DNA from: an uncultured Candidatus Saccharibacteria bacterium
GTDB taxonomy: Bacteria > Patescibacteriota > Saccharimonadia > Saccharimonadales > 2-12-FULL-41-12
NCBI GenBank assembly: GCA_964573095.1
Contig: CAZNIK010000001.1
Span: 313,004 to 377,003, forward strand
Direction of reading: 5' to 3'
Length of the DNA stretch: 64,000 nucleotides
In this document: piece by piece, positions 26,021 to 64,000 of the stretch
Layout: every line of letters begins with the position of its first letter
Position numbering within the stretch: position 1 is the first letter of the stretch
Notes under the pieces: model-generated
Told to the model about the DNA's origin: nothing
Databases searched by the model: none
The model's input: the letters and a program-made list of their open reading frames with translations, nothing else
Translations under genes and position numbers: made by a program

Positions 26021-26458
26021 TTAGCGGCTGCCGTGCATCATATTCATCATTTCATCAGATGAGTAAGACCAGTCTTTTTGCCATTGCTTCATGTTTGCAA
26101 TTTCTTTTTCTTGGGCAACAATAATGTCCTTGCTAAGTTGTTTTATTTCTTGGTGCTTTGCTCGAGCAGCTGAAAGTCTGGCCATATCAATCGCCCCTTG
26201 GTGGTGGTCAATCATCATCTCTATAAAGGCCTTGTCATAATCATCACCTTTTAAGCCTTCGAGCTGCCTGCTCATCTCAGCCATAGACATTGTGCGATGG
26301 TCACTAGCGGTGCGCCGCTCGGTCCTAGTAGTATCCATGCCCATCATCCGCATCATGCCTGTGTTGTTATTGTTCACAGACTGTCCAGCCACAAAACCAG
26401 CTATCACAACTCCCGCCAGTAGGCCTATTATTGCAAACATTGCATTGTCTTTATTCAT
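26021..26458 (-). CDS. DUF305 domain protein (secreted or anchored)
   Basis: DKAFIEMMIDHHQGAIDMA...IIVAQEKEI pattern. Confidence 0.8.
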   Translation of the reverse strand: MNKDNAMFAIIGLLAGVVIAGFVAGQSVNNNNTGMMRMMGMDTTRTERRTASDHRTMSMAEMSRQLEGLKGDDYDKAFIEMMIDHHQGAIDMARLSAARAKHQEIKQLSKDIIVAQEKEIANMKQWQKDWSYSSDEMMNMMHGSR

Positions 26459-26467
26459 AAATACCTC

Positions 26468-26752
26468 CTATTTACTTCTCACGTTTGATAGCTCGTATAG
26501 GCCCAGCAGCTCCGCAACCGCCTGTTCTTGGGCTTTTTCTGAACTGGAACTAAGTTTTTCCTTGATATGTGTACGAACATGGTTCTCGAGTATTAGTTTG
26601 TTGAGCGAGCCGATAGATTTTTGAATAGCCAGGCTCTGCGTCAGTATATCCATACAGTAATCTTCGTTCTCAATCATTTTCTGGATGCCACGCATCTGAC
26701 CCTCGAGTATCTTAGAACGATGCAAGGCGCGTTTTTTTAGATCAGAAATCAT
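26468..26752 (-). CDS. csoR: CsoR/RcnR-family metal-sensing repressor
   Basis: 94 aa with the LxRIEGQxRGIxxMI-like helix (ILEGQMRGIQKMIENEDYCMDIL) and the conserved Cys/His positions. Confidence 0.85.
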   Translation of the reverse strand: MISDLKKRALHRSKILEGQMRGIQKMIENEDYCMDILTQSLAIQKSIGSLNKLILENHVRTHIKEKLSSSSEKAQEQAVAELLGLYELSNVRSK

Positions 26753-26762
26753 ATTAAAATAA

Positions 26763-26781
26763 TAATACCCCCTGGGGGTAT
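26763..26781. promoter_or_regulatory. CsoR-type operator AATACCCCC-T-GGGGGTATT
   Basis: Perfect 9+9 inverted repeat 11 nt upstream of the csoR start. It matches the GC-tract palindrome style of known CsoR boxes. Confidence 0.7.
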
Positions 26782-26784
26782 TGT

Positions 26785-26812
26785 CAATATAAAAATATTA
26801 CCTCATTTTGCA
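26785..26812 (-). promoter_or_regulatory. Candidate csoR promoter (TTGCAA-16 nt-TATATT)
   Basis: Hexamers read on the minus strand. The operator begins 4 nt after the -10 element. Confidence 0.4.
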
Positions 26813-26830
26813 AAAGTTACCTCAGTTTTC

Positions 26831-26951
26831 TATTGGTGCGATACGTGGATGAAAAGTTACACATTATTAGAGAAGAAATTGAATATTGGCGTAACGTTCT
26901 AGCTATTCCATATCAAGAGTTTAAGCAAGATGCCACTAAATTACGGAGATA
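26831..26951 (+). repeat. Junction repeat copy D (most diverged; right arm only)
   Basis: ATTGGTGCGATACGTGG versus AATGGTGCCAGATAGCGG. Downstream patches (ACACATT, GAGTTTAA) align with copies A and C. The match is weak. Confidence 0.3.
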
Positions 26952-27051
26952 AGGGACTTACACTTTCTAATGCGTCAATCTTATTTTAGAGATATGTTGA
27001 TAAAAGATGTTACTTTATAGGTGGTAATTAGTTATTTATACCGAGAGAGTT

Positions 27052-29103
27052 ATGAAGATAAACTGGATAGAAATCGATAATGTAAAAAGCTTTAAGTCTA
27101 AAGTTAAAGTACAACTAAATTCTGATCACAATTTTGTTGTGGGCACAAACGGTAGTGGCAAGACTACCTTGCTGCAAGTGTTGAGCAGCTGTCTGCTTGT
27201 CTTGGTACCGCTTAGACGCACAAAGTCAGAATCTCGTGGTAACGAAAAGTGGCTTACATTTGAGACGCCTCCACACAATGTAATATTACCTAGAAACTTT
27301 GAGCGACAAGGAGATAATCAAACTATACGACTTGAAATATCGTTTGAGTCATCAAAAGACGGACTCATAAGTGAGCTTGAAAAATATCAAGCAGCATTTA
27401 GTGATAACAAAGAGTATCTGCGTAGCAAATTTTTAGATTTAGAGGGACTTTTATCAGAATTCGACAGTTATCTTGCTGCTTTAAAGGGATATAGCAGCTA
27501 TGTGTATACTTTTGATTTTTATGTTGACAGCAATTCTGGAATCGTCAGTCTTACTGGTGAGTCGCGCCAAAACAATAAAGGTATTCTAGATATTTTGGAT
27601 AACCTTGAGATCTTCCGACAAATTTATGATCATTTATTTAAGGCCGGAAAGGCGACAGAGGTCGTTACTCGAGGTTTCCAAATAATTTATTTGAATGCTG
27701 ATAGACTTATTGGTTTTCCAGCAGAGGTGCCTCAAGTTAGAGGAAATTTAGATGAATACTTTATAAACTCGTCATATGGGCAAAGAGCTAATCTTACAGG
27801 CAATATTTATTCCAATAGTAGCTTTAATTATATAGACCAAACGCTAACATCCATCGCAGAGGAACACTTCCATAGGAAATGGGACTTGCAGGATGCTGAA
27901 CCACTTGAAAATATAAAACAGTATACGGACTTGAAAGCTCGAATAAAGGATATTTTAGGCCTTGATTTTGGACTTGAAATATCACCACTAATTAACGAGC
28001 CTATCAAGCCTTATTTCCTTTGTGATGGTAACAAGATTTATTTTGATCAATTTAGTAGTGGCGAAAAGAGCTTAATCTACCTTTTGTTTACTCTTGCCAA
28101 TTCAGATATACAAAACTCATTTATCCTCATTGACGAAGCCGAAATACACCTGCACGGTAATATGCAGGACAAGTTATTATCAATTTTATATGAATTTAAA
28201 GAACTGAATAATCAACATTTTATAACCACGCACTCCCCGAAATTGATAAATAAACTAACCATATCCTCTGTCTTGCGATTCTATAAAACTGAAGGATCTA
28301 CTCAACATATAAACTTTAGGAATGACACGAATCAGCGTACAGATTACGATATTATTCGACTAATAAATAGCCAAAACAACGAAAAAATATTTTTTGCGGA
28401 TAAGGTCGTACTTGTCGAGGGCATTAAGGATCGAATTCTAATCGAAGCGATCATAAATCAGGTTAATGATACGAAAGAAATCATAGAAGTAATTGATGTA
28501 GGTGGCAAATTAAACTTGAGCTTTTATAGAGACTACCTTGAAGAGATCAAGGTATCTAACTACACACTTTCCGACTTCGATTACCTATACGATATCTGTA
28601 AAAAAGAGCTTGGCTCACTATTTGTCACAAGTAACAGTAAAATTGATGCCATTATTAAGCACAAAAAATCAGAGGACAGAAAAACACTGATAGATGCTAT
28701 GGAAGGCTTTGTATCGAGCAATGATAAAACCACTTTAAATAAAGTCACTGACTACCTTAAAACCAGGGGAATAGTCTTGAAAGATAATCTTAAGAAAGAA
28801 GAAAAAGTGTTATTAACAAACACCATTGATAAATTGAGAAGTAACAATATCTATATAATCTCCGCAGGGTTACTGTCAGATAAATCTAAATATTCTGGAG
28901 AGATTGAAGACTATTTACAGTATATTCAAACAAGCAAAAATCGAGACGATTCTATATCCAATCTCGTCAAATACATATCGAAAGATAACTTTGTAAACGC
29001 AATGGTAAAAAAATTAGAAACTAACGTTGCCGAGGAATTACTTGGGTTTATTGCTGCGGTTGTCTACAACGATGTAAGTAGAGGCTCGGACCTTATTAGG
29101 TAG
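27052..29103 (+). CDS. OLD-family ATP-dependent endonuclease (ABC-type ATPase plus Toprim)
   Basis: Walker A GTNGSGKTT, signature/Walker B FSSGEKSLIYLL...FILIDEAEIHLH, and C-terminal Toprim motifs VVLVEGIKD and DFD. Strongly AT-rich. Confidence 0.8.
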   Translation: MKINWIEIDNVKSFKSKVKVQLNSDHNFVVGTNGSGKTTLLQVLSSCLLVLVPLRRTKSESRGNEKWLTFETPPHNVILPRNFERQGDNQTIRLEISFESSKDGLISELEKYQAAFSDNKEYLRSKFLDLEGLLSEFDSYLAALKGYSSYVYTFDFYVDSNSGIVSLTGESRQNNKGILDILDNLEIFRQIYDHLFKAGKATEVVTRGFQIIYLNADRLIGFPAEVPQVRGNLDEYFINSSYGQRANLTGNIYSNSSFNYIDQTLTSIAEEHFHRKWDLQDAEPLENIKQYTDLKARIKDILGLDFGLEISPLINEPIKPYFLCDGNKIYFDQFSSGEKSLIYLLFTLANSDIQNSFILIDEAEIHLHGNMQDKLLSILYEFKELNNQHFITTHSPKLINKLTISSVLRFYKTEGSTQHINFRNDTNQRTDYDIIRLINSQNNEKIFFADKVVLVEGIKDRILIEAIINQVNDTKEIIEVIDVGGKLNLSFYRDYLEEIKVSNYTLSDFDYLYDICKKELGSLFVTSNSKIDAIIKHKKSEDRKTLIDAMEGFVSSNDKTTLNKVTDYLKTRGIVLKDNLKKEEKVLLTNTIDKLRSNNIYIISAGLLSDKSKYSGEIEDYLQYIQTSKNRDDSISNLVKYISKDNFVNAMVKKLETNVAEELLGFIAAVVYNDVSRGSDLIR

Positions 29104-29287
29104 CTGTAAAGGACAGTTCCGCCTTAGAAGAGAACTTTCTTTTCTCTATAAAGGCTTGGCCAGCATTCTGTCTAATTCTAAACTTAGTGCCGTGATTATG
29201 TCCTGTACGTGCATCAAAATCTACTAATGCGGTGTAAAAACATAGTTTTTCCGGCTGGTTTTTACATAGACGCACATAACAAAGTTT

Positions 29288-29476
29288 ACACGCCCGAAAT
29301 TAGTGTCTTTTACAGATTGGCTGCAAAGAAAAAGGACGCCGAAGCGTCCGAAATTTCCCAAATGGTGCCAGATAGCGGACTTATTGCTAACTATAAATCA
29401 CAGTAACGTTGACAGCTACAAGCTAAGGGGACTAGTTCAGCAGTTCAACCTTGCTGGCGATTTGATAGCACCTTGA
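29288..29476 (+). repeat. Junction repeat copy C (left arm + core + right arm)
   Basis: Contains the exact 20-mer AATGGTGCCAGATAGCGGAC (29361-29380). The left arm is homologous to copies A and B, with a 24-nt hairpin insertion. Confidence 0.7.
29303..29476 (+). CDS. Small conserved ORF (57 aa from GTG), paralogue C
   Basis: ...WCQIADLLLTINHSNVDSYKLRGLVQQFNLAGDLIAP. It aligns without gaps to the ORF at 30817-30960, with many synonymous differences. The start codon is uncertain and there is no clear SD. Confidence 0.35.
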   Translation: MSFTDWLQRKRTPKRPKFPKWCQIADLLLTINHSNVDSYKLRGLVQQFNLAGDLIAP

Positions 29477-29553
29477 TATAGATTCAAGTAGAATAGATGT
29501 ATAGGTGAGCTGGGAAGTCTGGTCGGCGCTTATTTTTTAATGCAAGGACTTCT

Positions 29554-30765
29554 GTGAAAGAAAAAGTAAAAAACCTAGCTCTCAAACTCCACCCGAAACG
29601 TGTAGCGACTTTATTTGATACATTTCTGAAAGATGAATCTATCGGCGGGAAGTTGATTCTTGTTGCTGCGTTGCTCTCTTTGATTGTCGTAAACTCGCCA
29701 CTTGCTGATGAGTTCAATACCTTTTGGCATACCCAGCTTTCAATCGGTATGGGTAGTTGGAGTTTGTCTCTTGATTTAAGACATTGGGTCAATGAGGGTC
29801 TTATGGCTTTCTTTTTCTTGGTAGTAGGTTTGGAAATTAAACGTGAACTTGTTAAAGGGGAGCTAAGAGATGTGAAGACTGCAGTCCTGCCGATAGGTGC
29901 TGCCGTCGGCGGAATGTTAATCCCCGCATTCATATATTTACTCTTTAACTTTAATACGGAAGCCGTCCAAGGCTGGGGCATACCTATTGCAACCGACATA
30001 GCGTTTGCCGTAGCAGTACTTTCGTTACTAAGCAACCGAGTGCCTGTACCTTTAAAGATATTCTTACTTACTCTTGCCATTGCTGATGACATAGGTGCTA
30101 TTTTTGTCATCGCCTTATTCTATGCAGAAATCATAAATTATTGGTATCTTGCTGCTTCGTTCCTGCTAGCTATTGGTATTTTCTTATTTAGGAAACAACT
30201 AACTTACCGCATTTTTATAGTGAGCTTACTTGGCGTTCTTCTATGGGTTACTACACATCTTTCAGGAATACACGCCAGCATTGTAGGTGCGGTTATGGGC
30301 TTCTTAGCACCAGTCGCAAGGTCTAATGACAAAGTGGGTGTTTCAGAAAAAGTTGAAAAACTGTTCCTGCCAATAACCACATTCTTTGTTTTACCAGTTT
30401 TTGCCTTCGCTAATGCGGGTTTCCCGATTAGTGCGAATGCATTAACGTCCAACCAATCCGTGTTATGGGGAGTTATCTTTGGGTTAGTAGCTGGCAAAGT
30501 TATTGGCATAACTCTGGCTTCTTGGTTGCTCGTCAAACTTAAGGTAGCGAAGTTGCCAAACGGCGTATTGTGGAAACATATTATAGGAATTGGCTTTATT
30601 GCAGGTATCGGCTTTACCGTTTCAATTTTTATAACTGAACTAGCTTTTTCAGATAGCCAATCGTTAATAAACACTGCGAAGATAGGTATATTTATTGCTT
30701 CGGCAGTTAGCGCATTGCTTGGCTACGCAATTTTGCGACTCACACGTTCTCGCCAAATTAATTAA
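29554..30765 (+). CDS. nhaA: Na+/H+ antiporter NhaA
   Basis: 403 aa, about 11-12 TM segments, NhaA signature GIPIATDIAFAVAVL. GTG start. Confidence 0.9.
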   Translation: MKEKVKNLALKLHPKRVATLFDTFLKDESIGGKLILVAALLSLIVVNSPLADEFNTFWHTQLSIGMGSWSLSLDLRHWVNEGLMAFFFLVVGLEIKRELVKGELRDVKTAVLPIGAAVGGMLIPAFIYLLFNFNTEAVQGWGIPIATDIAFAVAVLSLLSNRVPVPLKIFLLTLAIADDIGAIFVIALFYAEIINYWYLAASFLLAIGIFLFRKQLTYRIFIVSLLGVLLWVTTHLSGIHASIVGAVMGFLAPVARSNDKVGVSEKVEKLFLPITTFFVLPVFAFANAGFPISANALTSNQSVLWGVIFGLVAGKVIGITLASWLLVKLKVAKLPNGVLWKHIIGIGFIAGIGFTVSIFITELAFSDSQSLINTAKIGIFIASAVSALLGYAILRLTRSRQIN

Positions 30766-30775
30766 CATTATGTTT

Positions 30776-30960
30776 GAGTCCTTTTTGAGTTGAACGATAA
30801 AACACCGATTTTCTCGGTGCTTAACAGATACAGTAGCTTGCAATTTCAATGGTGCCAGATAGCGGACACATTTCTAACACTTAATCCCAGCAATATAGAC
30901 AATTACGAGCTCAAACATCTCGTAAATGAGTTTAATCTTTCTGGCAGTTTTATATTATAA
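30776..30960 (+). repeat. Junction repeat copy A (left arm + core + right arm)
   Basis: Exact 20-mer at 30848-30867. The left arm is roughly two-thirds identical to 31533-31611 by hand alignment. Confidence 0.7.
30817..30960 (+). CDS. Small conserved ORF (47 aa from GTG), paralogue A
   Basis: ...WCQIADTFLTLNPSNIDNYELKHLVNEFNLSGSFIL. Same frame and length as paralogue C from the W codon onward. The stop codon directly abuts the CIRCE element. Confidence 0.35.
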   Translation: MLNRYSSLQFQWCQIADTFLTLNPSNIDNYELKHLVNEFNLSGSFIL

Positions 30961-30987
30961 TTAGCACTCTTGACACGAGAGTGCTAA
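30961..30987. promoter_or_regulatory. CIRCE element (HrcA operator) TTAGCACTC-N9-GAGTGCTAA
   Basis: Exact match to the CIRCE consensus half-sites with a 9-nt spacer, 75 nt upstream of hsp20. Confidence 0.85.
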
Positions 30988-30998
30988 TTTTCTAAAAT
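30970..30998 (+). promoter_or_regulatory. Sigma-70-type promoter TTGACA-17 nt-TAAAAT for hsp20
   Basis: The -35 hexamer lies inside the CIRCE spacer and the -10 element follows the right half-site. Confidence 0.6.
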
Positions 30999-31061
30999 CA
31001 AGATAGAAGCTAGTTATGCTTCTCTAAGTAAGTTACTAATAATAACGAAAGGAGAAATATA

Positions 31062-31493
31062 ATGAGTAATCTTACTAGATGGGACCCTTTCGCAGAGCTG
31101 AGCGCTTTGCAAAAGCAATTTTTTGGTGATGACTGGATGACACCATTCAAGGGCGTAAACATACCTACTACGGACGTCTATACAAAAGATAACCAGCTTA
31201 AGGTTGAAGCTCACTTGCCAAACTTTGAACAAGACGATGTAAACATTCAGGTAGAGAACAACGCACTTGTTATAAGTGCCGAACGACACGAAAAAGAAGA
31301 GGATAAGGATAAGAAGTACGTGGTTCGTGAAAGCTCTAGTAGCTTTTACCGACGCATTGCACTACCAGATAGGGCTGATACAGATAAAATTGAAGCCAAA
31401 CTGGATGATGGCGTTCTTAAGGTAAGCGTACCATTAACACCATTACCAGAACCCAAGAAAATTGCTATCGCTGCTTCAAATAAAAAGAAGTAG
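31062..31493 (+). CDS. Hsp20/alpha-crystallin small heat-shock protein
   Basis: 143 aa with an ACD pattern (...VDVYTKDNQLKVEAHLPNF..., GVLKVSVP). Strong SD AAAGGAGA. Confidence 0.92.
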   Translation: MSNLTRWDPFAELSALQKQFFGDDWMTPFKGVNIPTTDVYTKDNQLKVEAHLPNFEQDDVNIQVENNALVISAERHEKEEDKDKKYVVRESSSSFYRRIALPDRADTDKIEAKLDDGVLKVSVPLTPLPEPKKIAIAASNKKK

Positions 31494-31515
31494 TCTAGTT
31501 CGGCCTTGCAGAAAA

Positions 31516-31546: not shown

Positions 31547-31611
31547 TTTGACGGAAAAGCACTAATTTCATTGGCGTTTAACAGATGAGCAATATCAGAA
31601 ATCAATGGTGC
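31533..31611 (+). repeat. Junction repeat copy B (left arm only, fused to the tRNA-Gly 3' end)
   Basis: Homologous to 30776-30856. Homology ends at CAATGGTGC, and TGGTGC is the complement of the tRNA-Gly GCACCA terminus. Confidence 0.65.
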
Positions 31612-31682
31612 GGGTGCGGGGACTCTAACCCCGGGCCTCATCCTTGGCAAGGATGCGCTCTAAACAACTGAGCTACACCCGC
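31606..31682 (-). tRNA. tRNA-Gly (GCC), CCA encoded, atypical D-loop and T-loop
   Basis: Hand-folded. Acceptor GCGGGTG/CACCCGC; anticodon loop TTGCCAA. The D-loop is AGTTGTTTA (no GG) and the T-loop is TTAGAGT (A at position 56). Confidence 0.85.
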
Positions 31683-31707
31683 TCGTTATTGAGATAAACA
31701 GTAAGTT

Positions 31708-31783
31708 TGGTGGCTCCTCCCAGACTCGAACTGGGGACACAAGGCTCTTCAGGCCTCTGCTCTACCAACTGAGCTAAAGAGCC
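31708..31783 (-). tRNA. tRNA-Phe (GAA), CCA encoded
   Basis: Hand-folded. Acceptor GGCTCTT/AGGAGCC; anticodon loop CTGAAGA. Confidence 0.9.
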
Positions 31784-31799
31784 CAATATTACGGAATAT

Positions 31800-31822
31800 T
31801 GGTGGTGATGAGGGACTCGACC
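31800..31822 (-). pseudogene. 3' fragment resembling the tRNA-Val T-arm, acceptor and CCA
   Basis: TGGTGGTGATGAGGGACTCGACC versus the tRNA-Val 3' end TGGTGGGTGATGAGGGACTCGAACC (two 1-nt gaps). No 5' half lies adjacent. Confidence 0.5.
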
Positions 31823-31931
31823 TTAACCCGTAAAAATTGCTTTTTGCTTGGTTCACTCGGCTTCCGTGGTCGCCGAGCAAGGGCGGCTGAGTGCCACCGG
31901 CACTCGCGTTCGATTCCAAACAAATAACTCT

Positions 31932-31970
31932 AATGAAAATTATATGACAGAAGTCATAAAAATTTTCATT
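31932..31970. terminator. Long AT-rich hairpin immediately 3' of tRNA-Val
   Basis: AATGAAAATT-T-TATGAC-TTCT-GTCATA-T-AATTTTCATT (minus strand), about 16 bp of pairing. Confidence 0.4.
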
Positions 31971-32046
31971 GGTGGGTGATGAGGGACTCGAACCCCCGAC
32001 CCCCTCGGTGTAAACGAGATGCTCTAGCCAACTGAGCTAATCACCC
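31970..32046 (-). tRNA. tRNA-Val (TAC), CCA encoded
   Basis: Hand-folded canonical cloverleaf; anticodon loop TTTACAC. Confidence 0.9.
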
Positions 32047-53341: not shown

Positions 53342-53760
53342 GCACTGTCTATGATATCGAAATATTCCTTAAGAATGAAACAGGCCGCCACAGAATCTTG
53401 TGAAATTTTTGTCCCTTTCCTGCCTTCCAACCACTGATCAGCACGCGTCGAACTTAGTGATTCGTCCACAAAAACAGGGTGAATCCGCAGCGTAGCTTCA
53501 AGTTCCTTGGTAAACTCCCTTATTGACTGACTTTGGGCGGTTTCCTCTCCGCTGAGGTTTCTCGGAATACCAATAACAACTACGCTGATTGATTCGCGCT
53601 GTAGTATCAATGATAATTGCTCGAACAGTGTTTTATCGCGAGGCAAAGTTTCGATGGGACGGGGTAATTTTGCAACTGTACCAGCAACCGCCAGCCCAAC
53701 GCGGGCATCACCAACATCCAGACCCAGAACAAAGACGTTACGGTTTGAGGGTTGTGCCAT
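53338..53760 (-). CDS. ruvX: Holliday-junction resolvase-like RuvX/YqgF
   Basis: LGLDVGDARVGLA N-terminus and the YqgF pattern. Confidence 0.9.
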   Translation of the reverse strand: MAQPSNRNVFVLGLDVGDARVGLAVAGTVAKLPRPIETLPRDKTLFEQLSLILQRESISVVVIGIPRNLSGEETAQSQSIREFTKELEATLRIHPVFVDESLSSTRADQWLEGRKGTKISQDSVAACFILKEYFDIIDSA

Positions 53761-55420
53761 CAGACTCTTGGATTACGATGGTAATTCTTGCATCCTTCTT
53801 TGGAACGGAGTAAATCCAGAATGGCTTGGTTTCGATGCGAACTTCCTTGATGCCTGGGCGTGCAGCGATAGCTTGCTCGGCTTCCCCCCTCTTTTTGCCA
53901 GCAATATCCTTCTTTATGGCATTTTGATCTATTTCGGGACCGGCCACTATTTGTGCTTGGACACCAATTGGTGTCCGGGTAGTTTTCTTCGTTCCCAGTT
54001 TGTAGCTCGCATCATCAATCCCATAACTTAAAATGGCTTGTTTTTGAGTATCAATTTGTTCACCCGCCGCTTTTTTTATCAAATTCTTCAAATCATCCTC
54101 CTTGACACCAAGCATTGTGTACGTCGTCTCGCTGGTGACACTCACTTCGCTGGCCTCACTATCTACTGCAGGAGTTACTGAAATCTTGGGGGTGCCAGCA
54201 TTAAATGTATCACCAATGGCAATAAAGCCTTCTTTTTTAAGGTTCTTCTTAAGTTCATCTTGAAAGCTCCCTTGTTTGGCGGTAAGTTTTTGCTTTGCTG
54301 ACTCTACATCGCTTGCAGAGACAACTTTCACAACTTGACTTGTGCCGCCACTCATTGCCGAACCATTGGCATTCACGCCGCCAAAACCAGCAACACTATA
54401 GGATCTTGCGCTGACATTATATTTATCGCCTGGGTTTTGAGCGATTACCGAAACGTCTTTTGTGCTCGATAAACAAGTTCCGCCTCCAGAAAATACACTC
54501 GGATCAAGGGTGACAGCGGCCTGGGTTATGAAAGTAAACTCGCCAGAACTGACCCCGCTACCAGCGGGAATAGTGAGTGCACCGTCACTCTGTGAACAGT
54601 TTTTCATGGTCATCGTGCCGGAAGCTTTGTTGCCTTTGTCTTTTTGGCCCGTGGCAGCAACTTTTTCGGTATCAGTTTTTTTTAGTTCTTGGTTTTTGGC
54701 AGGAATCACCCCAGTTTCTTCATCCAGCGATGTGGCTGCAGTATCAGCAATCATATCGAAGTTCACCGAAAGATTGCTGGTTTCACCCTTTAGCGTCACA
54801 ACTGCTTTTGGCGCAATAAAATACGCCCAATACCACCCAAGAATCAGCAATAGTAGAGCGGCAAGGCCTCCAAAAAGTAACACCCGAAATTTATTAAAGT
54901 TTGGAACCTTCATTTTGCCTTTTTTCCCGGATTTTTTGGCTTTGTTCTTGCTTTTTGACGACGTGCCATCGCCCGCGGTCTGAGGCGTACTGTTGTCTAT
55001 CTCGATTGCCGCTGGTTCCTGCTGACTGGCAGACGTGGCCTCTTGGGCGGCAGTCACATCACCAACGGTGGTGTCTGGCTCAATCGCAACTGGTTCCTTG
55101 GGAACTTGCTCTGCATTTTCGGACGGGGGCAACGGTAATGTCGGTTTAGAACTCAAGCTAGACGCCACATACAAACCAGCCATTCCAGCCAGTGGCAGAA
55201 GAGTTGATTCACTAGTGATAAGCACAACCTGTTTATCGTTTTGATCGGCAGCTCGTTTCAACAGCTTCATATTGACACTTGACTGCAATACGCTGGCACG
55301 TTTTGGTAATACTAAGGCTACGATTGACGTCGTAGATGACGTCACCTTGTCAACAATGCTCGTAATCTCTTCGTCAACGTCGACGTAGACGGTGCTTTTT
55401 TTCGAATTATCGGCACTCAT
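53738..55420 (-). CDS. Hypothetical bitopic membrane protein downstream of ftsA
   Basis: 560 aa: cytoplasmic N-domain, S/T/A/K-rich linker, one TM segment and a ~330-aa external domain. No family recognised. Confidence 0.55.
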   Translation of the reverse strand: MSADNSKKSTVYVDVDEEITSIVDKVTSSTTSIVALVLPKRASVLQSSVNMKLLKRAADQNDKQVVLITSESTLLPLAGMAGLYVASSLSSKPTLPLPPSENAEQVPKEPVAIEPDTTVGDVTAAQEATSASQQEPAAIEIDNSTPQTAGDGTSSKSKNKAKKSGKKGKMKVPNFNKFRVLLFGGLAALLLLILGWYWAYFIAPKAVVTLKGETSNLSVNFDMIADTAATSLDEETGVIPAKNQELKKTDTEKVAATGQKDKGNKASGTMTMKNCSQSDGALTIPAGSGVSSGEFTFITQAAVTLDPSVFSGGGTCLSSTKDVSVIAQNPGDKYNVSARSYSVAGFGGVNANGSAMSGGTSQVVKVVSASDVESAKQKLTAKQGSFQDELKKNLKKEGFIAIGDTFNAGTPKISVTPAVDSEASEVSVTSETTYTMLGVKEDDLKNLIKKAAGEQIDTQKQAILSYGIDDASYKLGTKKTTRTPIGVQAQIVAGPEIDQNAIKKDIAGKKRGEAEQAIAARPGIKEVRIETKPFWIYSVPKKDARITIVIQESDGTTLKP

Positions 55421-59761: not shown

Positions 59762-60673
59762 TTACTTACGATTTTCGAGCTGTCTACGAATTCTCTGTAG
59801 TTCGTATTTTTTTCCGAGCCAAAACGTCGTCGCCAGAAGTGGAATAGTGAGGAGCACAGGAAGCCATAAGACTTTGGTTGCACCTTGGGCTTGAACCTGC
59901 TTGTCTTTGGACTTATCCCCTTGCACCGCTTGAGAGAGCGGGCCATTCGCAACACCAACCAGCTGCAAAAACGCGACTTGACCCTCTTTGTCCGTCGCCC
60001 GAACCACTACGTTATAGATTCCAGCTTGATCATACACATGCGTGATATTAAACGTGCCTGGAAATGCTTGACTAATAATGGCGGGGGTTTTTCCGTCTCC
60101 CCAATCTACGCTAATGGCGTATGGGCCGATTCCGCCGCTCAGCGAAATTGGCCAGGTGAGAGTTTTTCCTGGATCAGCACCTTTTTTCGCAAAGCTACTC
60201 GTCAACGAAACCCTAGAAGAAAATCCGAACTGCGCCGTTGGGAAGTTGAGCACTACGAGATTTGAATCCGGTCCAGCTTGATCGAGCGCATCGTACACCC
60301 TCGCAATTATTTCGTTTCTGCCACTAAAAAGGTCGATCTGAATCGAATAACTACCGTTTCTACACTCCACAGAACCAGCAAACACGTTATTCTTGAAAAT
60401 CTTTACAAGCGTCCCGGTTGGACACAAACCGCTGACCGTAACGGGCAAGCTGTTGATTGTAGTTCCATCTCTTGGTAACGCAATAGTTGCGGGGGTCTTA
60501 GGCGGCTCGGTATTTATTTTGCCCTCCAAGCCCACTGAGCCACTTTCTTCAGCTGCAAACACTGGACCTTGGGCGAAAGCGCAGCCACACATTACTACAC
60601 ACGCGGCGAAGACCACTAACCTAAATCGGTTTTTGACAAAGGTGCTCATTTGCTCCAATAGTACCATAAGCAC
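59762..60673 (-). CDS. Secreted PKD-domain protein with a C-terminal TM anchor
   Basis: Signal peptide, Ig-like N-domain, PKD signature ISVDWGDG...ITHVYDQAGIYNVVVRATD, then a terminal hydrophobic helix with a basic tail. The start may be 60649. Confidence 0.75.
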   Translation of the reverse strand: MLMVLLEQMSTFVKNRFRLVVFAACVVMCGCAFAQGPVFAAEESGSVGLEGKINTEPPKTPATIALPRDGTTINSLPVTVSGLCPTGTLVKIFKNNVFAGSVECRNGSYSIQIDLFSGRNEIIARVYDALDQAGPDSNLVVLNFPTAQFGFSSRVSLTSSFAKKGADPGKTLTWPISLSGGIGPYAISVDWGDGKTPAIISQAFPGTFNITHVYDQAGIYNVVVRATDKEGQVAFLQLVGVANGPLSQAVQGDKSKDKQVQAQGATKVLWLPVLLTIPLLATTFWLGKKYELQRIRRQLENRK

Positions 60674-60708
60674 TGCCCGGGGTCCCCCGCCTTAGCTTAA
60701 GTCACGGG

Positions 60709-61680
60709 CTATTTCTTTTTTTTGCGGTGAAAGGTGTATTTTTTGCGATAAATCAAGACAATGAAGGTAACAACTGCCACGAAAAGGAGCGTAAGAAGAA
60801 TGAGCAGCCACACGGGAATGTACCAGAAAGAAGATTTGTAGTTTACAACTTCTCCCCCGTTGCCATAGGCAATTGAGGCGGTAGCAGTATACTTACCCGG
60901 TACCTTTACGTTTTTTATGTCGTCAGTAAATACTCTCGAGGAGTTTGGTAATACAATTCCCCTCGGATCTCGGCTATTTACATCGTAGGAGTACACTTGA
61001 CCACCGAGGGTTCGAGATATACTCACCTTGCCAAAGGGGCGCGAAAAGCCATTTCCTAAATTCTTTACGGTCACGTTGGCTTTTGTGGGGGTTTTTAGGA
61101 AAAACCAGCCCTTTTTATCACCACTTTGCATCTGAAGATTTTCGATCTTGATTTGTTCGACAATATTGCCAGGAACTTCGACAAATACCAAATGAGCAAC
61201 ACTTGCGGTTAGTGCAACTTGTCGATCTTGCTCATTAAGTGTTTGTCCTTTTGGAACAGCAGCGTACCGAACGGCACCAAAATAGGCACCCGGGGAAACG
61301 CCGGCCGGAATATCAACCGCCAACTTCACTTGCTTGGTCTCACCAGGCTGAAGCTCAACATCTTGAAGTCCCCGAATCATTTTGCTTATTGAGTACGGAC
61401 TTGCCTCTTTCTTTGGGTCAACAATTATTTGCGGGGTGCCAGAAGAGTTGTCAGATTCGAAGTCATTGATAAAGGCCTTGGCCGTCAACCCACCCTTAGT
61501 AATGTTTTTCAGATTTATGGTAAAGGTTTTGAGTTCGCCTGAAGCGCCGGATATTTCTGTTCGAGTGGGGGAAACTTGAAGCCCACTCCCGCTTTGTTGC
61601 GCGTTAGATGTACTGTTAAAACCAAAAATTGCTAATGTTAATACTACTACTCCAGCCAGAACCATTATTCTGCGTCGCAT
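60709..61680 (-). CDS. DUF916/DUF3324-like (CscA-like) cell-surface protein with a C-terminal TM anchor
   Basis: Signal peptide and two beta-rich domains whose pattern matches my memory of DUF916 (...PGAYFGAV...) and DUF3324 (...LPNSSRVF...PGKYTA...), ending in a TM segment plus a KKKK tail. Confidence 0.5.
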   Translation of the reverse strand: MRRRIMVLAGVVVLTLAIFGFNSTSNAQQSGSGLQVSPTRTEISGASGELKTFTINLKNITKGGLTAKAFINDFESDNSSGTPQIIVDPKKEASPYSISKMIRGLQDVELQPGETKQVKLAVDIPAGVSPGAYFGAVRYAAVPKGQTLNEQDRQVALTASVAHLVFVEVPGNIVEQIKIENLQMQSGDKKGWFFLKTPTKANVTVKNLGNGFSRPFGKVSISRTLGGQVYSYDVNSRDPRGIVLPNSSRVFTDDIKNVKVPGKYTATASIAYGNGGEVVNYKSSFWYIPVWLLILLTLLFVAVVTFIVLIYRKKYTFHRKKKK

Positions 61681-61770
61681 TACCTCAATTACCCTCCAAA
61701 ATTTTACTTTTCTTAGTAGTTACCAAAAAGTATAAGCGCTGGTGCTTTGTTTGTAAACCAATTTAATCAT

Positions 61771-62817
61771 CTAAAATGCGGCGGTCGCGACGTAGGTAAG
61801 CGTGGTGCTGTATATCCCTGGTGGTTGCCCGGCCGAAACATTGACGATATAGCTTGCTGTAAACTTGTTAAAGTTTGTCGAGAGCGGAGAAGAGAGGATC
61901 GCAATATTATTAAAATAAAATTGATTCTGACTGGACATTTGGGGGGCGGCTACCGCTGTTCCAGAGCCTATAGGATCGGCACCCACCGAAGGTGCGTTGT
62001 TGGCCCTTAGGTTCATTCCAAACTGACTAGTACCAGGCTGGCTGGCTGTGGGACTCCCCAGCGCTGTGATGACATTGTTACCAGAAGTCATAGTATTGCC
62101 ATTTAAAAATACTGAGTATCCCCCGGGGTCATTTGTTGAACCAGAAAGCTCTGATGCCACCTGTCGACTTTGGGTTGGCCTTAGTTCTCCAAAATCCAAA
62201 ATATTGCCAGAGGCTGTTGAGCAATCGAGCGAAACAGTTACTCCAACGCAGAAAGTAAGGTACGGAGGCACGTACCCATCTACTCCAATGCCGTTTACTG
62301 TTGCGAAGACTACCGCACCAGTATCAGTCCTTGGGCCAGATGCATTTACTGTGGCGTAGGTCGCAATGCGCACAAATACCGACTGGTTGACGACACTAGG
62401 GTTCGTAATATTTCCAAGTACATACGTCGCAGGAACACCTACAGATGGCACCGATGCCCGAGTAAGCACAACTTTGCTACTCGTTGTAAGCCCTCCATCA
62501 ACGCTAAAGCCCGTCTCACCGATTTGAGAATCAAGGGTGACTCCACTACTATCAAAGCCCGCGGGAGTTGTACAGGCTGTCCCTATGTACGGGTTGTTGG
62601 TACAAAATTCAAACTCAATCGACCCCAGGTTTGAAAAAGACGGAATAGTGAAGTCGAATTGGTAGGTTGTGACTGCGCTAGGCCGCGAACTACCCACAAT
62701 CACTCGACGACTATAAAGGTCGCTCGCTTCAACTTGATGAGAATACAACAAGGGCGCTACCACTATGAGTAGCGCCGCAAGTATCTGTCTAGTTTTGAAT
62801 TGTCGTATATCCACCAC
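61771..62817 (-). CDS. Secreted beta-rich protein, WxL-like (Y-for-W variant), paralogue 1
   Basis: Signal peptide. Motifs GGYSVFL and C-terminal PGIYSTTLTYVATAAF. Paralogous to the next gene. Confidence 0.6.
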   Translation of the reverse strand: MVDIRQFKTRQILAALLIVVAPLLYSHQVEASDLYSRRVIVGSSRPSAVTTYQFDFTIPSFSNLGSIEFEFCTNNPYIGTACTTPAGFDSSGVTLDSQIGETGFSVDGGLTTSSKVVLTRASVPSVGVPATYVLGNITNPSVVNQSVFVRIATYATVNASGPRTDTGAVVFATVNGIGVDGYVPPYLTFCVGVTVSLDCSTASGNILDFGELRPTQSRQVASELSGSTNDPGGYSVFLNGNTMTSGNNVITALGSPTASQPGTSQFGMNLRANNAPSVGADPIGSGTAVAAPQMSSQNQFYFNNIAILSSPLSTNFNKFTASYIVNVSAGQPPGIYSTTLTYVATAAF

Positions 62818-62863
62818 GATACAGCTTATTCTAAACCACCATCTCTAGGTTTGTATAATTCGC

Positions 62864-64000
62864 CTAAAACGTAGGTGTTGCGATGTAAGTACTCACTACC
62901 GTGTAGGCACCGGTTGGGGTGGTGGCTTCAGCGCTGGCGCCGAAAGCAAGTTTTACGATCTCGTCATCTACCACTTTTACGCTTGAGCCGGCTGAGGTAG
63001 CAATTTCGGTAGCTGTAGAAGTGTCGTTCCAGGCAAAGGTAGTGTTGGTGTCGGTATTTTCGCAGTTTGCAGCTGAAGTAGTGGTGCCATCACCGTCGAA
63101 GTCGGTGTCTGCAACGAGGTTTACAGTTGAACCCTGGGTCGTATCAATACAAGGGATGTTCATGCCAAAGTACTCGTTCCCGGCAGTCACCGCAGTACCA
63201 CCAGAGGTATCGCCCGCAGCTGAACGGAAACATTGGTCAGTGAGTGTCGCAGCGGAGGCGTTACAGGTCGCACCAGTCACACGGAAGGCTCGAAGTTGGT
63301 TCGTACCAGAACCGGCTTGTTCGGAGAAGAAAGTGATTGACACGCCGTTTGAGGCATTGGTATTGACCATGGCAATGCCGTAGTCGTCGTTGCCTTGGGA
63401 GGTCGGCGGGTTGTCATCGACAGGAGATTTTGCAACGGTCGTGTTGTCGACGACCCCAATATCTACCACGGTAGTAGTGAGAGCACTACAGGTTGCGACA
63501 TCAGCCGGTAAGGCGGCGGCGTCGTCAATCGCGGCGACACAGAAGGCCAGACGCTCTTGCACACGGCCGTTGACCGTTAGTTGGTCGTTGAAGGCAACGG
63601 CAACTGCGCCCTGGTCTAATTTATTTGCACCCAGAAAGGCGTTATCACTATAGATGGCGATACGAATGTAGACGGTTTGTTGAGAGCTAGGAGCAGTAAT
63701 ACCACTAATCGTATGGGTGACTGCGCCGCCGCCAGTCGTAGCCGAGGTGCGCTCAAAACACATCTTGCTGTTGGTTGTGCTCATGTCACAATCGTTTTCG
63801 TCGGTAACAGCGTGGGCGGTAAAGGCCGTACCGTTCGAAGGCCAGCCGGTTTGCGCATCATGGGTTGCAGCTTGCACTGACATGCCAGTTGGCAACGTAC
63901 AGCTGCCGAGCGCCGTGGTACAAAACTGGTAGATGATACCTTGCTTCGCAGCCGCGGTATTGGGGATTGAGTAGCTAAACGCAAATTCAACGTCTGTAGA
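62864..64000 (-). CDS. Secreted beta-rich protein, WxL-like, paralogue 2 (5' end outside the window)
   Basis: The reading frame stays open from 63895 to the window edge (...STDVEFAFSYSIPNTAAAKQGIIYQFCTT...). That stretch aligns to the paralogue-1 N-region. C-terminus: TGAYTVVSTYIATPTF. Confidence 0.6.
   Translation of the reverse strand, partial: STDVEFAFSYSIPNTAAAKQGIIYQFCTTALGSCTLPTGMSVQAATHDAQTGWPSNGTAFTAHAVTDENDCDMSTTNSKMCFERTSATTGGGAVTHTISGITAPSSQQTVYIRIAIYSDNAFLGANKLDQGAVAVAFNDQLTVNGRVQERLAFCVAAIDDAAALPADVATCSALTTTVVDIGVVDNTTVAKSPVDDNPPTSQGNDDYGIAMVNTNASNGVSITFFSEQAGSGTNQLRAFRVTGATCNASAATLTDQCFRSAAGDTSGGTAVTAGNEYFGMNIPCIDTTQGSTVNLVADTDFDGDGTTTSAANCENTDTNTTFAWNDTSTATEIATSAGSSVKVVDDEIVKLAFGASAEATTPTGAYTVVSTYIATPTF

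What the first reader, a model, noticed from the sequence alone, without database searches (positions are those of the whole stretch)
59762..64000. Surface-protein locus resembling a Csc/WxL cluster, with Y-for-W variants of the WxL-like motifs
Four consecutive minus-strand genes all encode signal-peptide proteins. Two are long paralogues; the second runs off the window and its frame is open to position 64000. These share blocks such as FCT..C..P.G, (V/I)(Y/F)(V/I)RIA.Y, GAV..A, L.FCV, (L/V)D(F/I)G and FGMN(L/I), and end in G.Y....(T)Y(V/I)AT..F. The third protein has an architecture matching my memory of DUF916+DUF3324 (CscA of lactobacilli and enterococci): two beta domains, a terminal TM segment and a poly-basic tail. 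The fourth is a PKD-domain protein with the same kind of C-terminal anchor. In Firmicutes, CscA genes travel with WxL-domain proteins whose hallmarks are an internal GW.L and a C-terminal ..Y....LTW.L. The paralogues here have GGYSVFL and ..Y....LTYVA at the corresponding positions. This may be a divergent, non-covalently assembled cell-surface complex in a lineage that depends on attachment to host cells.
Basis: inference. Interest (0 to 1): 0.6.

Follow-up and report, generated by a model that had tools for sequence, protein, structure and literature searches.

The report
Pam pilus operon of a Saccharibacterium
These four genes are the membrane-proximal half of the recently described "Pam" pilus operon, which ultrasmall CPR/Saccharibacteria are thought to use to reach host cells; it is not a WxL cluster, but its membrane-anchored chaperone-like protein is a real relative of the WxL-interacting protein of Firmicutes.

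Summary
Four co-directional minus-strand genes encode secreted proteins: two paralogous beta-rich proteins with the listed motifs, a two-Ig-domain protein with a C-terminal TM helix and basic tail, and a second TM-anchored Ig/PKD-like protein.

The locus is a known system, the Pam pilus operon of CPR bacteria (bioRxiv 10.64898/2026.03.03.709456; NCBIfam NF058578/79/81).
- g1 is PamR (394 bits, cutoff 300).
- g3 carries the Pam pilin C-domain (144 bits, cutoff 55).
- Gene order g1-g2-g3-g4 matches PamR-PamD-PamE-PamA of Ca. Mycosynbacter amalyticus.
- PamT and ATP synthase genes follow in 20 syntenic Saccharimonadia loci, so the window cuts the operon.

The WxL reading fails for the pilins:
- No PF13731 hit in any of 32 pilins.
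- hhalign probability 0.2-0.3%.
- g3 has no Trp.

The reading is right for the third protein. Its family hits DUF916/WxLIP_PGBD in 25 of 27 members. It aligns to a bona fide Enterococcus WxLIP at 94-95% hhalign probability. Its best PDB fold match is E. faecium WxLIP (9i1y/9i25). DUF3324 is not detectable by sequence.

The PamD-WxLIP link is not mentioned in the Pam preprint, and it is the only new element. The locus is a new member of a known kind, of moderate interest.

The parts
59762..60673 (-). g1 = pamR. It encodes an RbmA-like two-domain protein with a signal peptide, a conserved mature N-terminal strand (SGSVGLEGKI), Ig/PKD-like domains, a C-terminal TM helix (about residues 268-287, nt 59813-59872) and a basic tail. 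The true start is probably the ATG at 60649 (MSTFVKN...).
   Evidence: NCBIfam NF058578 CPR_pilus_PamR equivalog scores 394 bits against a cutoff of 300. Pfam gives Glucodextran_B 29.7 bits and a borderline PKD hit. The TM helix and tail are shown. The mature N-terminus is conserved in 20 orthologues.
60709..61680 (-). g2 = pamD-like membrane-anchored chaperone, a WxLIP homologue. It has a signal peptide, an N-terminal DUF916-like Ig domain (about residues 39-170, nt 61171-61566), a second Ig-like domain, a TM helix (about residues 288-311, nt 60748-60819) and a poly-basic tail.
   Evidence: The AF2 model has pLDDT 80.9 and shows two beta-sandwich domains plus a TM helix. Foldseek top hits are WxLIP 9i1y/9i25 at E 2-4e-10, with chaperone-usher chaperones at about 3e-8. 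PF06030 matches 25 of 27 family members. hhalign against E. mundtii WxLIP gives 95.5% probability. The gene sits between pamR and pamE, as PamD (QHN43271) does.
61771..62817 (-). g3 = pamE-like two-domain pilin. It has a signal peptide, an N-terminal beta-sandwich domain, a conserved linker that is the putative donor strand (VDGYVPPYLTFCVGV, residues ~175-192, nt 62242-62295) and a C-terminal Pam pilin domain (residues ~196-348, nt 61774-62232). It has two Cys pairs and no Trp.
   Evidence: NCBIfam NF058581 CPR_Pam_pilin_C scores 143.9 bits against a cutoff of 55. In the AF2 model the N-terminal domain has pLDDT 80-94 and the linker falls below 50. The linker and C-terminus are invariant-rich in 29 homologues. 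Cysteine positions are C72/C82/C190/C199.
62864..64000 (-). g4 = pamA-like large pilin, truncated by the window end. 378 aa are visible, and about 95 N-terminal residues including the signal peptide are missing. It has ten cysteines.
   Evidence: The frame is open to position 64000. It is a paralogue of g3 at E 2e-12. Its Pam_pilin_C hit is weak, 19.8 bits against a cutoff of 55. Orthologues of 424-495 aa occupy the same position in 14 related loci.

Best explanation
The locus is the promoter-distal part (pamA'-pamE-pamD-pamR) of a Pam pilus operon in a Saccharimonadia (CPR/Patescibacteria) genome.

Proposed mechanism: all products are exported by Sec.
- The pilins g4 (PamA-like) and g3 (PamE-like) each have an N-terminal beta-sandwich domain, a conserved linker strand, and an incomplete Ig-like C-terminal domain that ends in the G.Y..T.TY.A...F strand.
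- g2 (PamD-like) stays in the cytoplasmic membrane through its C-terminal helix. It transiently completes the open C-terminal domain of a pilin with one of its own strands (donor-strand complementation).
- The linker strand of the next pilin then replaces that strand (donor-strand exchange). This builds a non-covalent linear filament from the tip (PamT, encoded just beyond the window) towards the cell. No usher or outer membrane is involved.
- g1 (PamR) would insert its conserved mature N-terminal strand into the last pilin. That would terminate growth and tether the pilus to the membrane through its own TM helix. The filament is thought to make first contact with the host bacterium.

Basis of each step:
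- Shown experimentally elsewhere (M. amalyticus): the PamA and PamB filament structures and their donor-strand assembly.
- Shown here: family membership, architecture, synteny and conservation.
- Inferred only: the roles of PamD, PamE and PamR.

By sequence, the PamD-like protein belongs to the DUF916/WxLIP family of Firmicutes, not to the PapD family.
For: - Family models: NCBIfam PamR equivalog is above its cutoff, and the Pam pilin C-domain is above its cutoff in g3.
- Published system: the preprint describes cryo-EM filaments of PamA/PamB, donor-strand exchange, TM-anchored PamC/PamD, TM-anchored RbmA-like PamR and the tip pilin PamT.
- Gene order and sizes: g1-g2-g3-g4 matches QHN43270 PamR (32.8 kDa), 43271 PamD (37.4), 43272 PamE (38.6), then PamA and 43274 PamT.
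- Synteny: 20 Saccharimonadia loci from different species keep the syntenic order; the 14 that extend far enough show all of atpD - 227-aa gene - PamT - large pilin (1-2 copies) - 348-aa pilin - g2 homologue - PamR - mnmA - alaS.
- g2 structure: the AF2 model shows two Ig-like domains plus a TM helix. It matches WxLIP and chaperone-usher chaperones such as CupB2, Caf1M, CsuC and CfaA.
- g3 structure: the model has a confident N-terminal domain and a disordered but highly conserved linker, as expected for a donor strand that is only ordered in the polymer.
- Cysteines: paired cysteines are present, as reported for PamA/PamB.
- PamR: the mature N-terminus SGSVGLEG(K/R)I is conserved in 20 orthologues.
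- WxLIP relationship of g2.
Against: - No experiment exists on this organism.
- g4 scores below the cutoff on the Pam pilin C-domain model (19.8 against 55). No NCBIfam model hits g2.
- No M. amalyticus sequences could be retrieved. Orthology to PamD, PamE and PamA therefore rests on order, size, architecture and the HMMs, not on direct alignment.
- The chaperone role of PamC/PamD and the terminator role of PamR are AlphaFold-based proposals even in the source preprint, which is not peer reviewed.
- No pamB or pamC equivalent is present on the mnmA side of pamR in this lineage, so the system here is a reduced version.
- No multimer prediction could be run here.
Confidence: 0.88

Rival explanations
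1. This is a divergent Csc/WxL cell-surface complex. The two paralogues would be WxL-domain proteins in which Tyr replaces Trp. They would be held on the wall or peptidoglycan by a CscA/WxLIP protein as a static adhesive complex, not a polymer.
For: - g2 is a WxLIP relative.
- The cluster composition is parallel. A WxL cluster has a small WxL protein, a large WxL protein and a WxLIP. Here there is a single-domain PamT, two-domain pilins and a WxLIP-like protein.
- AF2 predicts that a WxLIP strand completes the WxL beta-sandwich, which is the same principle as chaperone-pilin complementation.
- There is a superficial motif resemblance: NDGWDL and TLTWEL in WxL proteins against NDPGGYSVFL and TLTYVA in the Pam pilins.
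Against: - PF13731 hit 0 of 32 Pam pilins even at E<=10.
- Profile-profile comparison gave 0.2-0.3% probability in local and global modes.
- No WxL chain of 9i25 appeared among the top 50 fold hits of the g3 model.
- No PF11797 hit was found.
- There is no LPxTG partner.
- The homologous PamA and PamB proteins have been seen directly as helical filaments by cryo-EM.
Confidence: 0.07
2. This is a classical or archaic chaperone-usher pilus of the Gram-negative type (Pap/Fim/Csu) acquired by a CPR bacterium.
For: - The g2 model matches CupB2, Caf1M, CsuC, CfaA, FimC and similar chaperones at E about 3e-8, with the highest TM-scores (up to 0.55) for CfaA.
- The CupB6 tip adhesin is among the g3 fold hits.
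- One pilin gave a non-significant SCPU hit at E 0.43.
Against: - No PapD_N or PapD_C Pfam hit was found in 27 g2-family members, while PF06030 hits 25 of them.
- No usher-sized ORF lies anywhere between the ATP synthase genes and mnmA in the syntenic loci. The largest ORF there is a pilin of about 490 aa.
- The chaperone is TM-anchored, and CPR bacteria lack an outer membrane.
- The pilins have two domains and use an internal linker as the donor strand, not an N-terminal extension.
Confidence: 0.03
3. These are unrelated Ig-fold adhesins (MSCRAMM-like or S-layer-like) that merely sit together. g2 and g1 would be independent membrane-anchored adhesins with no assembly relationship.
For: Top fold hits of the g3 model are MSCRAMM adhesins (FnBPA, CNA, SdrE, ClfA) and integrins. 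Generic Ig-like Pfam hits are seen for g1 and g2.
Against: - TM-scores of those hits are only about 0.2.
- The gene order is strictly conserved in 20 species.
- Specific NCBIfam Pam models match.
- Cryo-EM filaments of the homologues exist.
Confidence: 0.02

Closest known systems
Pam pilus system of Ca. Mycosynbacter amalyticus (PamA/B/E/T pilins, PamC/D chaperones, PamR tether; bioRxiv 10.64898/2026.03.03.709456; NCBIfam NF058578, NF058579, NF058581)
   Same: - The PamR equivalog HMM matches above its cutoff, and the Pam pilin C-domain matches above its cutoff in g3.
- The gene order PamR-PamD-PamE-PamA(-PamT) is the same, and the product sizes are similar.
- The chaperone-like protein and PamR are both TM-anchored.
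- The pilins carry paired cysteines.
- The locus neighbours ATP synthase genes in syntenic relatives.
- The lineage is Saccharimonadia.
   Different: - This lineage has only one chaperone-like gene at the locus, and no pamB or pamC next to pamR. mnmA follows pamR directly.
- g4 scores weakly on the pilin C-domain model.
- Some relatives carry two tandem PamA-like genes.
- A conserved 227-aa N-terminally anchored gene precedes pamT.
WxL-interacting protein (WxLIP / CscA; DUF916 PF06030 + DUF3324 PF11797 + TM helix) of WxL/Csc clusters in Lactobacillales and Listeria (PMC10599100; PDB 9i1y, 9i25)
   Same: - g2 has the same architecture and length: signal peptide, two perpendicular Ig-like domains, a C-terminal TM helix and a basic tail.
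- The N-terminal domain shows sequence-profile homology (hhalign 94.6%, E 6.8e-8; PF06030 hits across the family).
- WxLIP is the best PDB fold hit.
- Like WxLIP, g2 is encoded next to one small and one or more large secreted beta-rich proteins whose sandwich it is predicted to complete with a strand.
   Different: - The second domain is not recognisable as DUF3324 by sequence.
- The partner proteins are Pam pilins, not WxL-domain proteins.
- There is no LPxTG (CscD-like) gene.
- The host is a CPR bacterium.
- The partners polymerise into filaments, whereas WxL proteins are described as peptidoglycan-bound.
Chaperone-usher pili (Pap/Fim, Caf1, Csu, CFA/I) of Gram-negative bacteria
   Same: The assembly principle is donor-strand complementation and exchange on an incomplete Ig fold. 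The chaperone has two Ig-like domains, and the fold similarity of g2 reaches TM up to 0.55 to CfaA.
   Different: - There is no usher and no outer membrane.
- The chaperone is membrane-anchored.
- The pilins have two domains and use an internal linker as the donor strand.
- The filament is linear rather than coiled.
- No sequence similarity to the PapD or fimbrial Pfam families was found.
Vibrio cholerae RbmA (biofilm matrix scaffold, tandem FnIII domains)
   Same: PamR (g1) is described as RbmA-like. RbmA structures are also among the top fold hits of the g2 model (4kkp, E 7.5e-10).
   Different: RbmA is secreted and soluble, with no TM helix and no N-terminal donor strand. The TM-scores of the hits are low (0.25-0.34).

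Membership tests
Pam pilus system (CPR) | PamR: RbmA-like protein with a C-terminal TM helix that matches the NCBIfam equivalog NF058578 above its cutoff | tested here: met
   g1 scores 394 bits against a cutoff of 300, covering profile positions 11-296 of 297. TM helix and basic tail.
Pam pilus system (CPR) | Pilins carrying the Pam pilin C-terminal domain (NF058581) above its cutoff | tested here: met
   g3 scores 143.9 bits against a cutoff of 55. g4 scores only 19.8 bits, which is below the cutoff. g4 is nevertheless a paralogue of g3 (E 2e-12) and shares the C-terminal strand motif.
Pam pilus system (CPR) | Two-domain pilin: N-terminal beta-sandwich, conserved linker donor strand, and a truncated Ig-like C-terminal domain | tested here: inconclusive
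   The AF2 monomer model shows a confident N-terminal domain, a linker with pLDDT below 50 and a moderately confident C-terminal domain. The linker is highly conserved. The strand-exchanged state was not modelled because no multimer tool was available.
Pam pilus system (CPR) | Membrane-anchored chaperone (PamC/PamD) with two beta domains, encoded in the operon | tested here: met
   The g2 model shows two beta-sandwich domains plus a TM helix, with fold hits to chaperone-usher chaperones. g2 occupies the position of PamD, QHN43271. No direct alignment to PamD was possible.
Pam pilus system (CPR) | Operon order and neighbourhood: PamR-PamD-PamE-PamA-PamT, next to ATP synthase genes | tested here: met
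   Order in M. amalyticus follows from consecutive QHN accession numbers. The 14 syntenic loci that extend far enough upstream show PamT, a 227-aa gene and atpD beyond the g4 orthologue; the shorter ones are cut first. The window itself ends inside g4.
Pam pilus system (CPR) | Formation of helical filaments by donor-strand exchange | not testable with these tools
   This needs cryo-EM, cryo-ET or multimer modelling. It has been shown only for M. amalyticus PamA and PamB.
Csc / WxL cluster (Firmicutes) | At least two WxL-domain proteins (PF13731, with the dual Trp-x-Leu motif) in the cluster | tested here: not met
   PF13731 hit 0 of 32 Pam pilins at E<=10. Enterococcus controls all carry PF13731. 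hhalign gave 0.2-0.3% probability. g3 has no Trp, and neither pilin has a W.L motif.
Csc / WxL cluster (Firmicutes) | WxLIP N-terminal domain DUF916 / PGBD (PF06030) | tested here: inconclusive
   g2 itself scores 20.6 bits, below the gathering score of 27.3. At family level the feature is met: 25 of 27 members at E<=0.01, best 6.5e-10, and remote members at 28.8-34.7 bits are above the gathering score. hhalign of the N-domain gives 94.6%, E 6.8e-8, against shuffled-sequence scores of at most 23 versus 55.8. NCBI names one homologue 'DUF916 domain-containing protein'.
Csc / WxL cluster (Firmicutes) | WxLIP second domain DUF3324 / HBD (PF11797) | tested here: not met
   No PF11797 hit was found in 27 members. 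The C-domain alone gives 0.4% by hhalign. The positive control, E. mundtii WxLIP, scores 169 bits. A second Ig-like domain is present structurally.
Csc / WxL cluster (Firmicutes) | C-terminal transmembrane helix on the WxLIP/CscA protein | tested here: met
   g2 residues ~288-311 are hydrophobic (KD maximum 3.3) and are followed by RKKYTFHRKKKK. The model shows a helix at 290-320.
Csc / WxL cluster (Firmicutes) | Small LPXTG-anchored CscD-type protein | tested here: not met
   None of the four proteins, nor PamT or the 227-aa protein of L001, has an LPxTG motif.
Classical chaperone-usher pili | PapD-family periplasmic chaperone (PF00345/PF02753) and an outer-membrane usher (PF00577) | tested here: not met
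   No PapD Pfam hit was found in the g2 family. No usher-sized ORF lies between atpD and mnmA in the syntenic loci. There is fold-level resemblance only.

The most novel reading that the evidence does not exclude
The Pam pili of CPR bacteria and the Csc/WxL clusters of Firmicutes would be two branches of one ancient surface-assembly system of monoderm (single-membrane) bacteria. The system would have no usher. A membrane-anchored DUF916-type protein (PamC/D = WxLIP/CscA) would complete the open beta-sandwich of small and large secreted subunits with a donated strand.

If this is true, one of two things follows. Either WxL proteins are pilin-like subunits that may polymerise or be handed over by strand exchange, or PamC/D act as WxLIP-type anchors rather than as transient chaperones.

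The evidence here establishes the PamD-WxLIP link for the N-terminal domain and for the overall architecture. It leaves the relation between the pilin C-terminal domain and the WxL domain unsupported by sequence and untested by a proper structural comparison.
Probability: 0.3. Interest if true: 0.8.

Novelty: new member of a known kind. Interest (0 to 1): 0.42.

Why it matters
As a locus this is an orthologue of a system already described in 2026, so it adds little on its own. It confirms that a reduced, single-chaperone pam operon (pamT-pamA-pamE-pamD-pamR, wedged between the ATP synthase genes and mnmA/alaS) is conserved across many Saccharimonadia species.

The useful by-product is the sequence-level link between the Pam 'chaperone' and the WxLIP/CscA (DUF916) family of lactobacilli, enterococci and Listeria. 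The Pam preprint does not mention this link.

The link connects two literatures. WxL clusters are linked to adhesion and virulence, and their assembly is poorly understood. Pam pili are an usher-less donor-strand pilus. The connection gives a concrete, testable hypothesis in both directions, using crystal structures that already exist (9i1y, 9i25) and the PamA/PamB cryo-EM models.

It also shows that the g2 family is very large. The profile search found 7157 clusters at 50% identity with E<=1e-3, so this type of membrane-anchored Ig-domain assembly factor may be widespread.

Tried and rejected
- **Extending the contig.** Exact look-ups of g3 and of the identical NCBI protein P0001 found no contig on record. 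The source genome was not among the 20 GTDB loci, whose closest members are 57-60% identical. I inferred the missing part from syntenic relatives instead.
- **PDB sequence searches.** Profiles of the g2 and g3 families gave nothing relevant. The PamA/PamB and WxLIP entries were not hit by sequence.
- **Pilin against WxL.** Every test failed: Pfam at E<=10, hhalign of the full-length alignment against a single WxL protein, hhalign of the full-length pilin alignment against a WxL alignment, hhalign of the C-terminal domain in local mode at mact 0.05 and in global mode, and Foldseek of the g3 model. I therefore rejected the 'Y-for-W WxL' reading. Both alignments are shallow (Neff 2.3-3.1), so remote homology is not excluded.
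- **Representative-library search.** The A1 profile search was meant to reach Firmicutes WxLIPs. The family is so large that all 150 listed hits have E<1e-40 and match the profile over most of its length like the CPR query family (their taxa were not checked, apart from a few named Saccharibacteria), so only the counts were useful.
- **tblastn of g2 against plasmids.** This gave only two weak hits. One (E=2) landed on an E. mundtii DUF916/DUF3324 gene and served as the WxL-cluster comparator. The other is a Deinococcus hypothetical protein with generic Ig-like Pfam hits, which I did not pursue.
- **Promoter and terminator scan.** Counts were no higher than in shuffled sequence.
- **Paralogues in the window.** I looked for further Pam paralogues elsewhere in the 64 kb and found none.

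Full report
**1. Observation.**

The region holds four co-directional minus-strand ORFs with short gaps:
- g1, 59762-60673, 303 aa
- g2, 60709-61680, 323 aa
- g3, 61771-62817, 348 aa
- g4, 62864 to the window end; its frame has no stop in 379 codons

g1, g2 and g3 begin with signal-peptide-like segments. g1 and g2 each end in a single hydrophobic helix followed by a basic tail. g3 and g4 are paralogues (BLASTP E 2e-12, 33% identity over 155 aa). In an alignment of 29 homologues many of these positions are invariant, so they are family signatures. The only caveat is that the signal peptide of g4 lies off the window; it is present in the 472-aa orthologue of locus L001.

**2. What it is.**

Pfam gives little:
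- g1 has Glucodextran_B and a borderline PKD hit.
- g2 has a sub-threshold PF06030 (DUF916/WxLIP_PGBD) hit, 20.6 bits against 27.3.
- g3 and g4 have no hit.

NCBIfam is decisive:
- g1 is the equivalog 'pilus system RbmA-like protein PamR' (NF058578, 394 bits, cutoff 300).
- g3 carries 'Pam pilus system pilin subunit' (NF058581, 143.9 bits, cutoff 55).
- g4 hits the same model weakly (19.8 bits).

These models derive from a 2026 preprint (10.64898/2026.03.03.709456). The preprint reports:
- It solved cryo-EM structures of two filaments of Ca. Mycosynbacter amalyticus, made of the two-domain pilins PamA and PamB.
- Assembly is by donor-strand exchange, using the inter-domain linker strand.
- From AlphaFold and Foldseek, it proposed that PamC and PamD are PapD/FimC-like chaperones that keep a C-terminal TM helix.
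- It proposed PamT as a single-domain tip, PamE as a minor pilin, and the RbmA-like, TM-anchored PamR as terminator and tether.

The preprint's proteomics table gives consecutive GenBank ids and masses: QHN43270 PamR (32.8 kDa), 43271 PamD (37.4), 43272 PamE (38.6) and 43274 PamT (25.6). This is exactly the order and sizes of g1, g2 and g3, with g4 taking the PamA slot.

**3. Context from relatives.**

A scan of GTDB species genomes with an alignment of g2 homologues returned 20 Saccharimonadia loci. Every locus long enough shows the same arrangement: atpD ... a 227-aa N-terminally anchored protein, PamT (NF058579, 233.5 bits), one or two PamA-like pilins, the 348-aa pilin, the g2 homologue, PamR, mnmA and alaS.

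The window therefore cuts the operon. Missing are about 95 residues of g4, pamT and the 227-aa gene. Immediately downstream of pamR the window has mnmA, alaS and ftsA, as in the relatives. No further Pam paralogue is present in the 64 kb. Unlike M. amalyticus, this lineage has one chaperone-like gene at the locus and no pamB or pamC beside pamR.

**4. Structure and mechanism.**

g2 model (pLDDT 80.9):
- It shows two beta-sandwich domains and a C-terminal TM helix.
- Foldseek against the PDB ranks E. faecium WxLIP first (9i1y, E 1.9e-10; 9i25 chain C, 'WxLIP bound to long WxL', 4.4e-10). RbmA follows, then many chaperone-usher chaperones at about 3e-8.
- By TM-score, CfaA (0.54-0.55) is at least as good as WxLIP (0.43-0.45). 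Fold alone does not separate the two classes.

g3 model (pLDDT 73):
- The N-terminal domain is confident. The linker falls below pLDDT 50 (residues 175-187) although it is among the most conserved segments (V183, P184, P185, C190 and G192 are invariant). The C-terminal domain is moderately confident.
- This is what one expects of a donor strand and an incomplete Ig fold that only become ordered in the polymer. That reading is an inference.

Other supporting features:
- g3 has two Cys pairs and the visible part of g4 has ten Cys. This agrees with the paired cysteines reported for PamA and PamB.
- The mature N-terminus of PamR, SGSVGLEG(K/R)IS.PPP, is conserved in all 20 orthologues. This fits the proposed terminating donor strand.

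The most likely mechanism is therefore as follows. Subunits are exported by Sec. g2 provides membrane-anchored donor-strand complementation. Filament growth proceeds by donor-strand exchange, in the order PamT, then PamA-like g4 and PamE-like g3. PamR terminates growth and tethers the pilus. No usher is involved. The filament structure is shown experimentally only in M. amalyticus. The roles of PamD, PamE and PamR are model-based even there.

**5.

*(a) The WxLIP/CscA analogy for g2 is real.*
- 25 of 27 family members match PF06030 at E<=0.01, with a best E of 6.5e-10. None matches PapD families.
- Remote members found by an exhaustive profile search exceed the Pfam gathering score at 28.8-34.7 bits.
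- NCBI already names one homologue 'DUF916 domain-containing protein'.
- A tblastn against plasmids landed, at a non-significant E of 2, on an Enterococcus mundtii 'DUF916 and DUF3324 domain-containing protein' inside a textbook WxL cluster of LPXTG protein, small WxL, WxLIP and large WxL. That protein is a bona fide WxLIP: PF06030 121 bits, PF11797 169 bits.
- hhalign of the g2-family alignment against this protein gives 95.5% probability (E 1.4e-8, 260 collinear columns).
- After removing the signal peptide and TM helix, the probability is 94.1%.
- The signal comes from the N-terminal domain (94.6%, E 6.8e-8). The second domain alone gives nothing (0.4%).
- Thirty shuffles of the target scored at most 23, against 55.8 observed.
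- In short, DUF916 homology is supported. DUF3324 is not detectable, although the overall architecture is the same.

*(b) The 'Y-for-W WxL' idea for the pilins is not supported.*
- PF13731 hit 0 of 32 Pam pilins at E<=10. Every Enterococcus small WxL homologue carries it.
- hhalign of Pam pilins against a WxL alignment gives 0.2% probability. C-terminal-domain-only comparisons give 0.3% (local) and 0.05% (global).
- The g3 model does not retrieve the WxL chain of 9i25 in its top 50. It finds generic two-Ig adhesins at TM about 0.2.
- g3 has no tryptophan, and no LPxTG protein is present.
- The motif resemblance (NDGWDL / TLTWEL against NDPGGYSVFL / TLTYVA) is therefore not evidence of membership.
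- The alignments are shallow (Neff 2.3-3.1) and the monomer C-terminal-domain model is imperfect. Deep homology is untested rather than excluded.

**6. What is new.**

The locus is a new member of a known kind. The one element I could not find in the literature available here is the PamD-WxLIP relationship:
- The Pam preprint contains no occurrence of WxL, DUF916, DUF3324 or Csc.
- No paper in the library other than a 2013 review (PMC3796261) contained both 'WxL' and 'donor strand'.

The WxLIP paper (PMC10599100) reports that a WxL cluster is typically one small WxL protein, one large WxL protein and one WxLIP. It also reports that AlphaFold2 places a WxLIP hairpin strand into a gap of the WxL beta-sandwich. 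This parallels PamT (single domain), PamA/E (two domains) and the PamD-pilin complexes.

This motivates the novel reading that both are branches of one usher-less system of monoderm bacteria with a membrane-anchored chaperone. I give it about 0.3 probability, because the subunit-level relationship failed every sequence test.

**7. Verdict.**

- Observation: confirmed.
- Interpretation: partly supported. It is right for the CscA/WxLIP-like protein and for 'non-covalent surface assembly for host attachment'. It is wrong for WxL, and the known identity was missed.
- Identity: Pam pilus operon, pamA'-pamE-pamD-pamR, confidence about 0.88.
- Interest: moderate (0.42), owing to the cross-phylum WxLIP link rather than to the locus itself.

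Noticed in passing
window 26000-31500 (OLD-family gene 27052-29103, + strand): A low-GC stretch (0.37-0.41 against about 0.46 elsewhere) lies between two tRNA clusters: Leu/Cys at 25266-25430 and Gly/Phe/Val at 31606-32046. It carries a stand-alone OLD-family ATPase-TOPRIM nuclease (Pfam AAA_15 + OLD-like_TOPRIM; PADLOC Old 2.5e-28, AriA/GajA-like) on the opposite strand to most genes, followed by an NhaA antiporter gene. It looks like a small defence or genomic island in a reduced CPR genome.
   Followed up: partly
L001 5803-6486 and its orthologues in 14 loci (just beyond window position 64000 by synteny): A conserved 227-aa protein with one N-terminal TM segment is encoded immediately upstream of pamT in every complete syntenic locus (36-50% identity). 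It has no Pfam or NCBIfam assignment and is not among the named Pam components in the parts of the preprint I read. It may be an unrecognised part of the operon.
   Followed up: partly
L004, L005, L012, L015 (PamA-like genes): Four related species carry two tandem PamA-like large-pilin genes where the others have one. This suggests lineage-specific duplication and diversification of the major pilin.
   Followed up: no
search with the g2-family profile; P0393 (4220 aa): The g2/WxLIP-like profile retrieves 7157 clusters at 50% identity with E<=1e-3, and 3413 with E<=1e-10. This is far more than the roughly 500 WxLIPs catalogued in 2023. One hit is a 4220-aa protein with 33 matched stretches whose Pfam hits are Sm_like and CarboxypepD_reg repeats, so part of the tail is probably repeat-driven Ig-like similarity.
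   Followed up: partly
L022 (Deinococcus sp. AB2017081 plasmid NZ_CP140100.1, 5905-6723): A 272-aa hypothetical protein aligns to 73% of g2 (22.6% identity, tblastn E 0.1). It sits among small hypothetical genes next to a 1090-aa carboxypeptidase-regulatory-domain protein. Only generic Ig-like Pfam hits were found (NPCBM_assoc, CARDB). It could be an analogous surface-assembly cluster or chance.
   Followed up: partly
window 53738-55420 (- strand): A 560-aa ORF lies directly downstream of ftsA and overlaps its stop by 4 nt. It has one internal TM segment, no Pfam hit, and is conserved in position in L001 (569 aa). It may be a CPR-specific partner in cell division.
   Followed up: no
window 60649-60673: The longest ORF of g1 starts at the GTG at 60673. 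However, the PamR model and its orthologues align from about residue 9-19, so the ATG at 60649 (MSTFVKNRF...) is the more likely start.
   Followed up: partly
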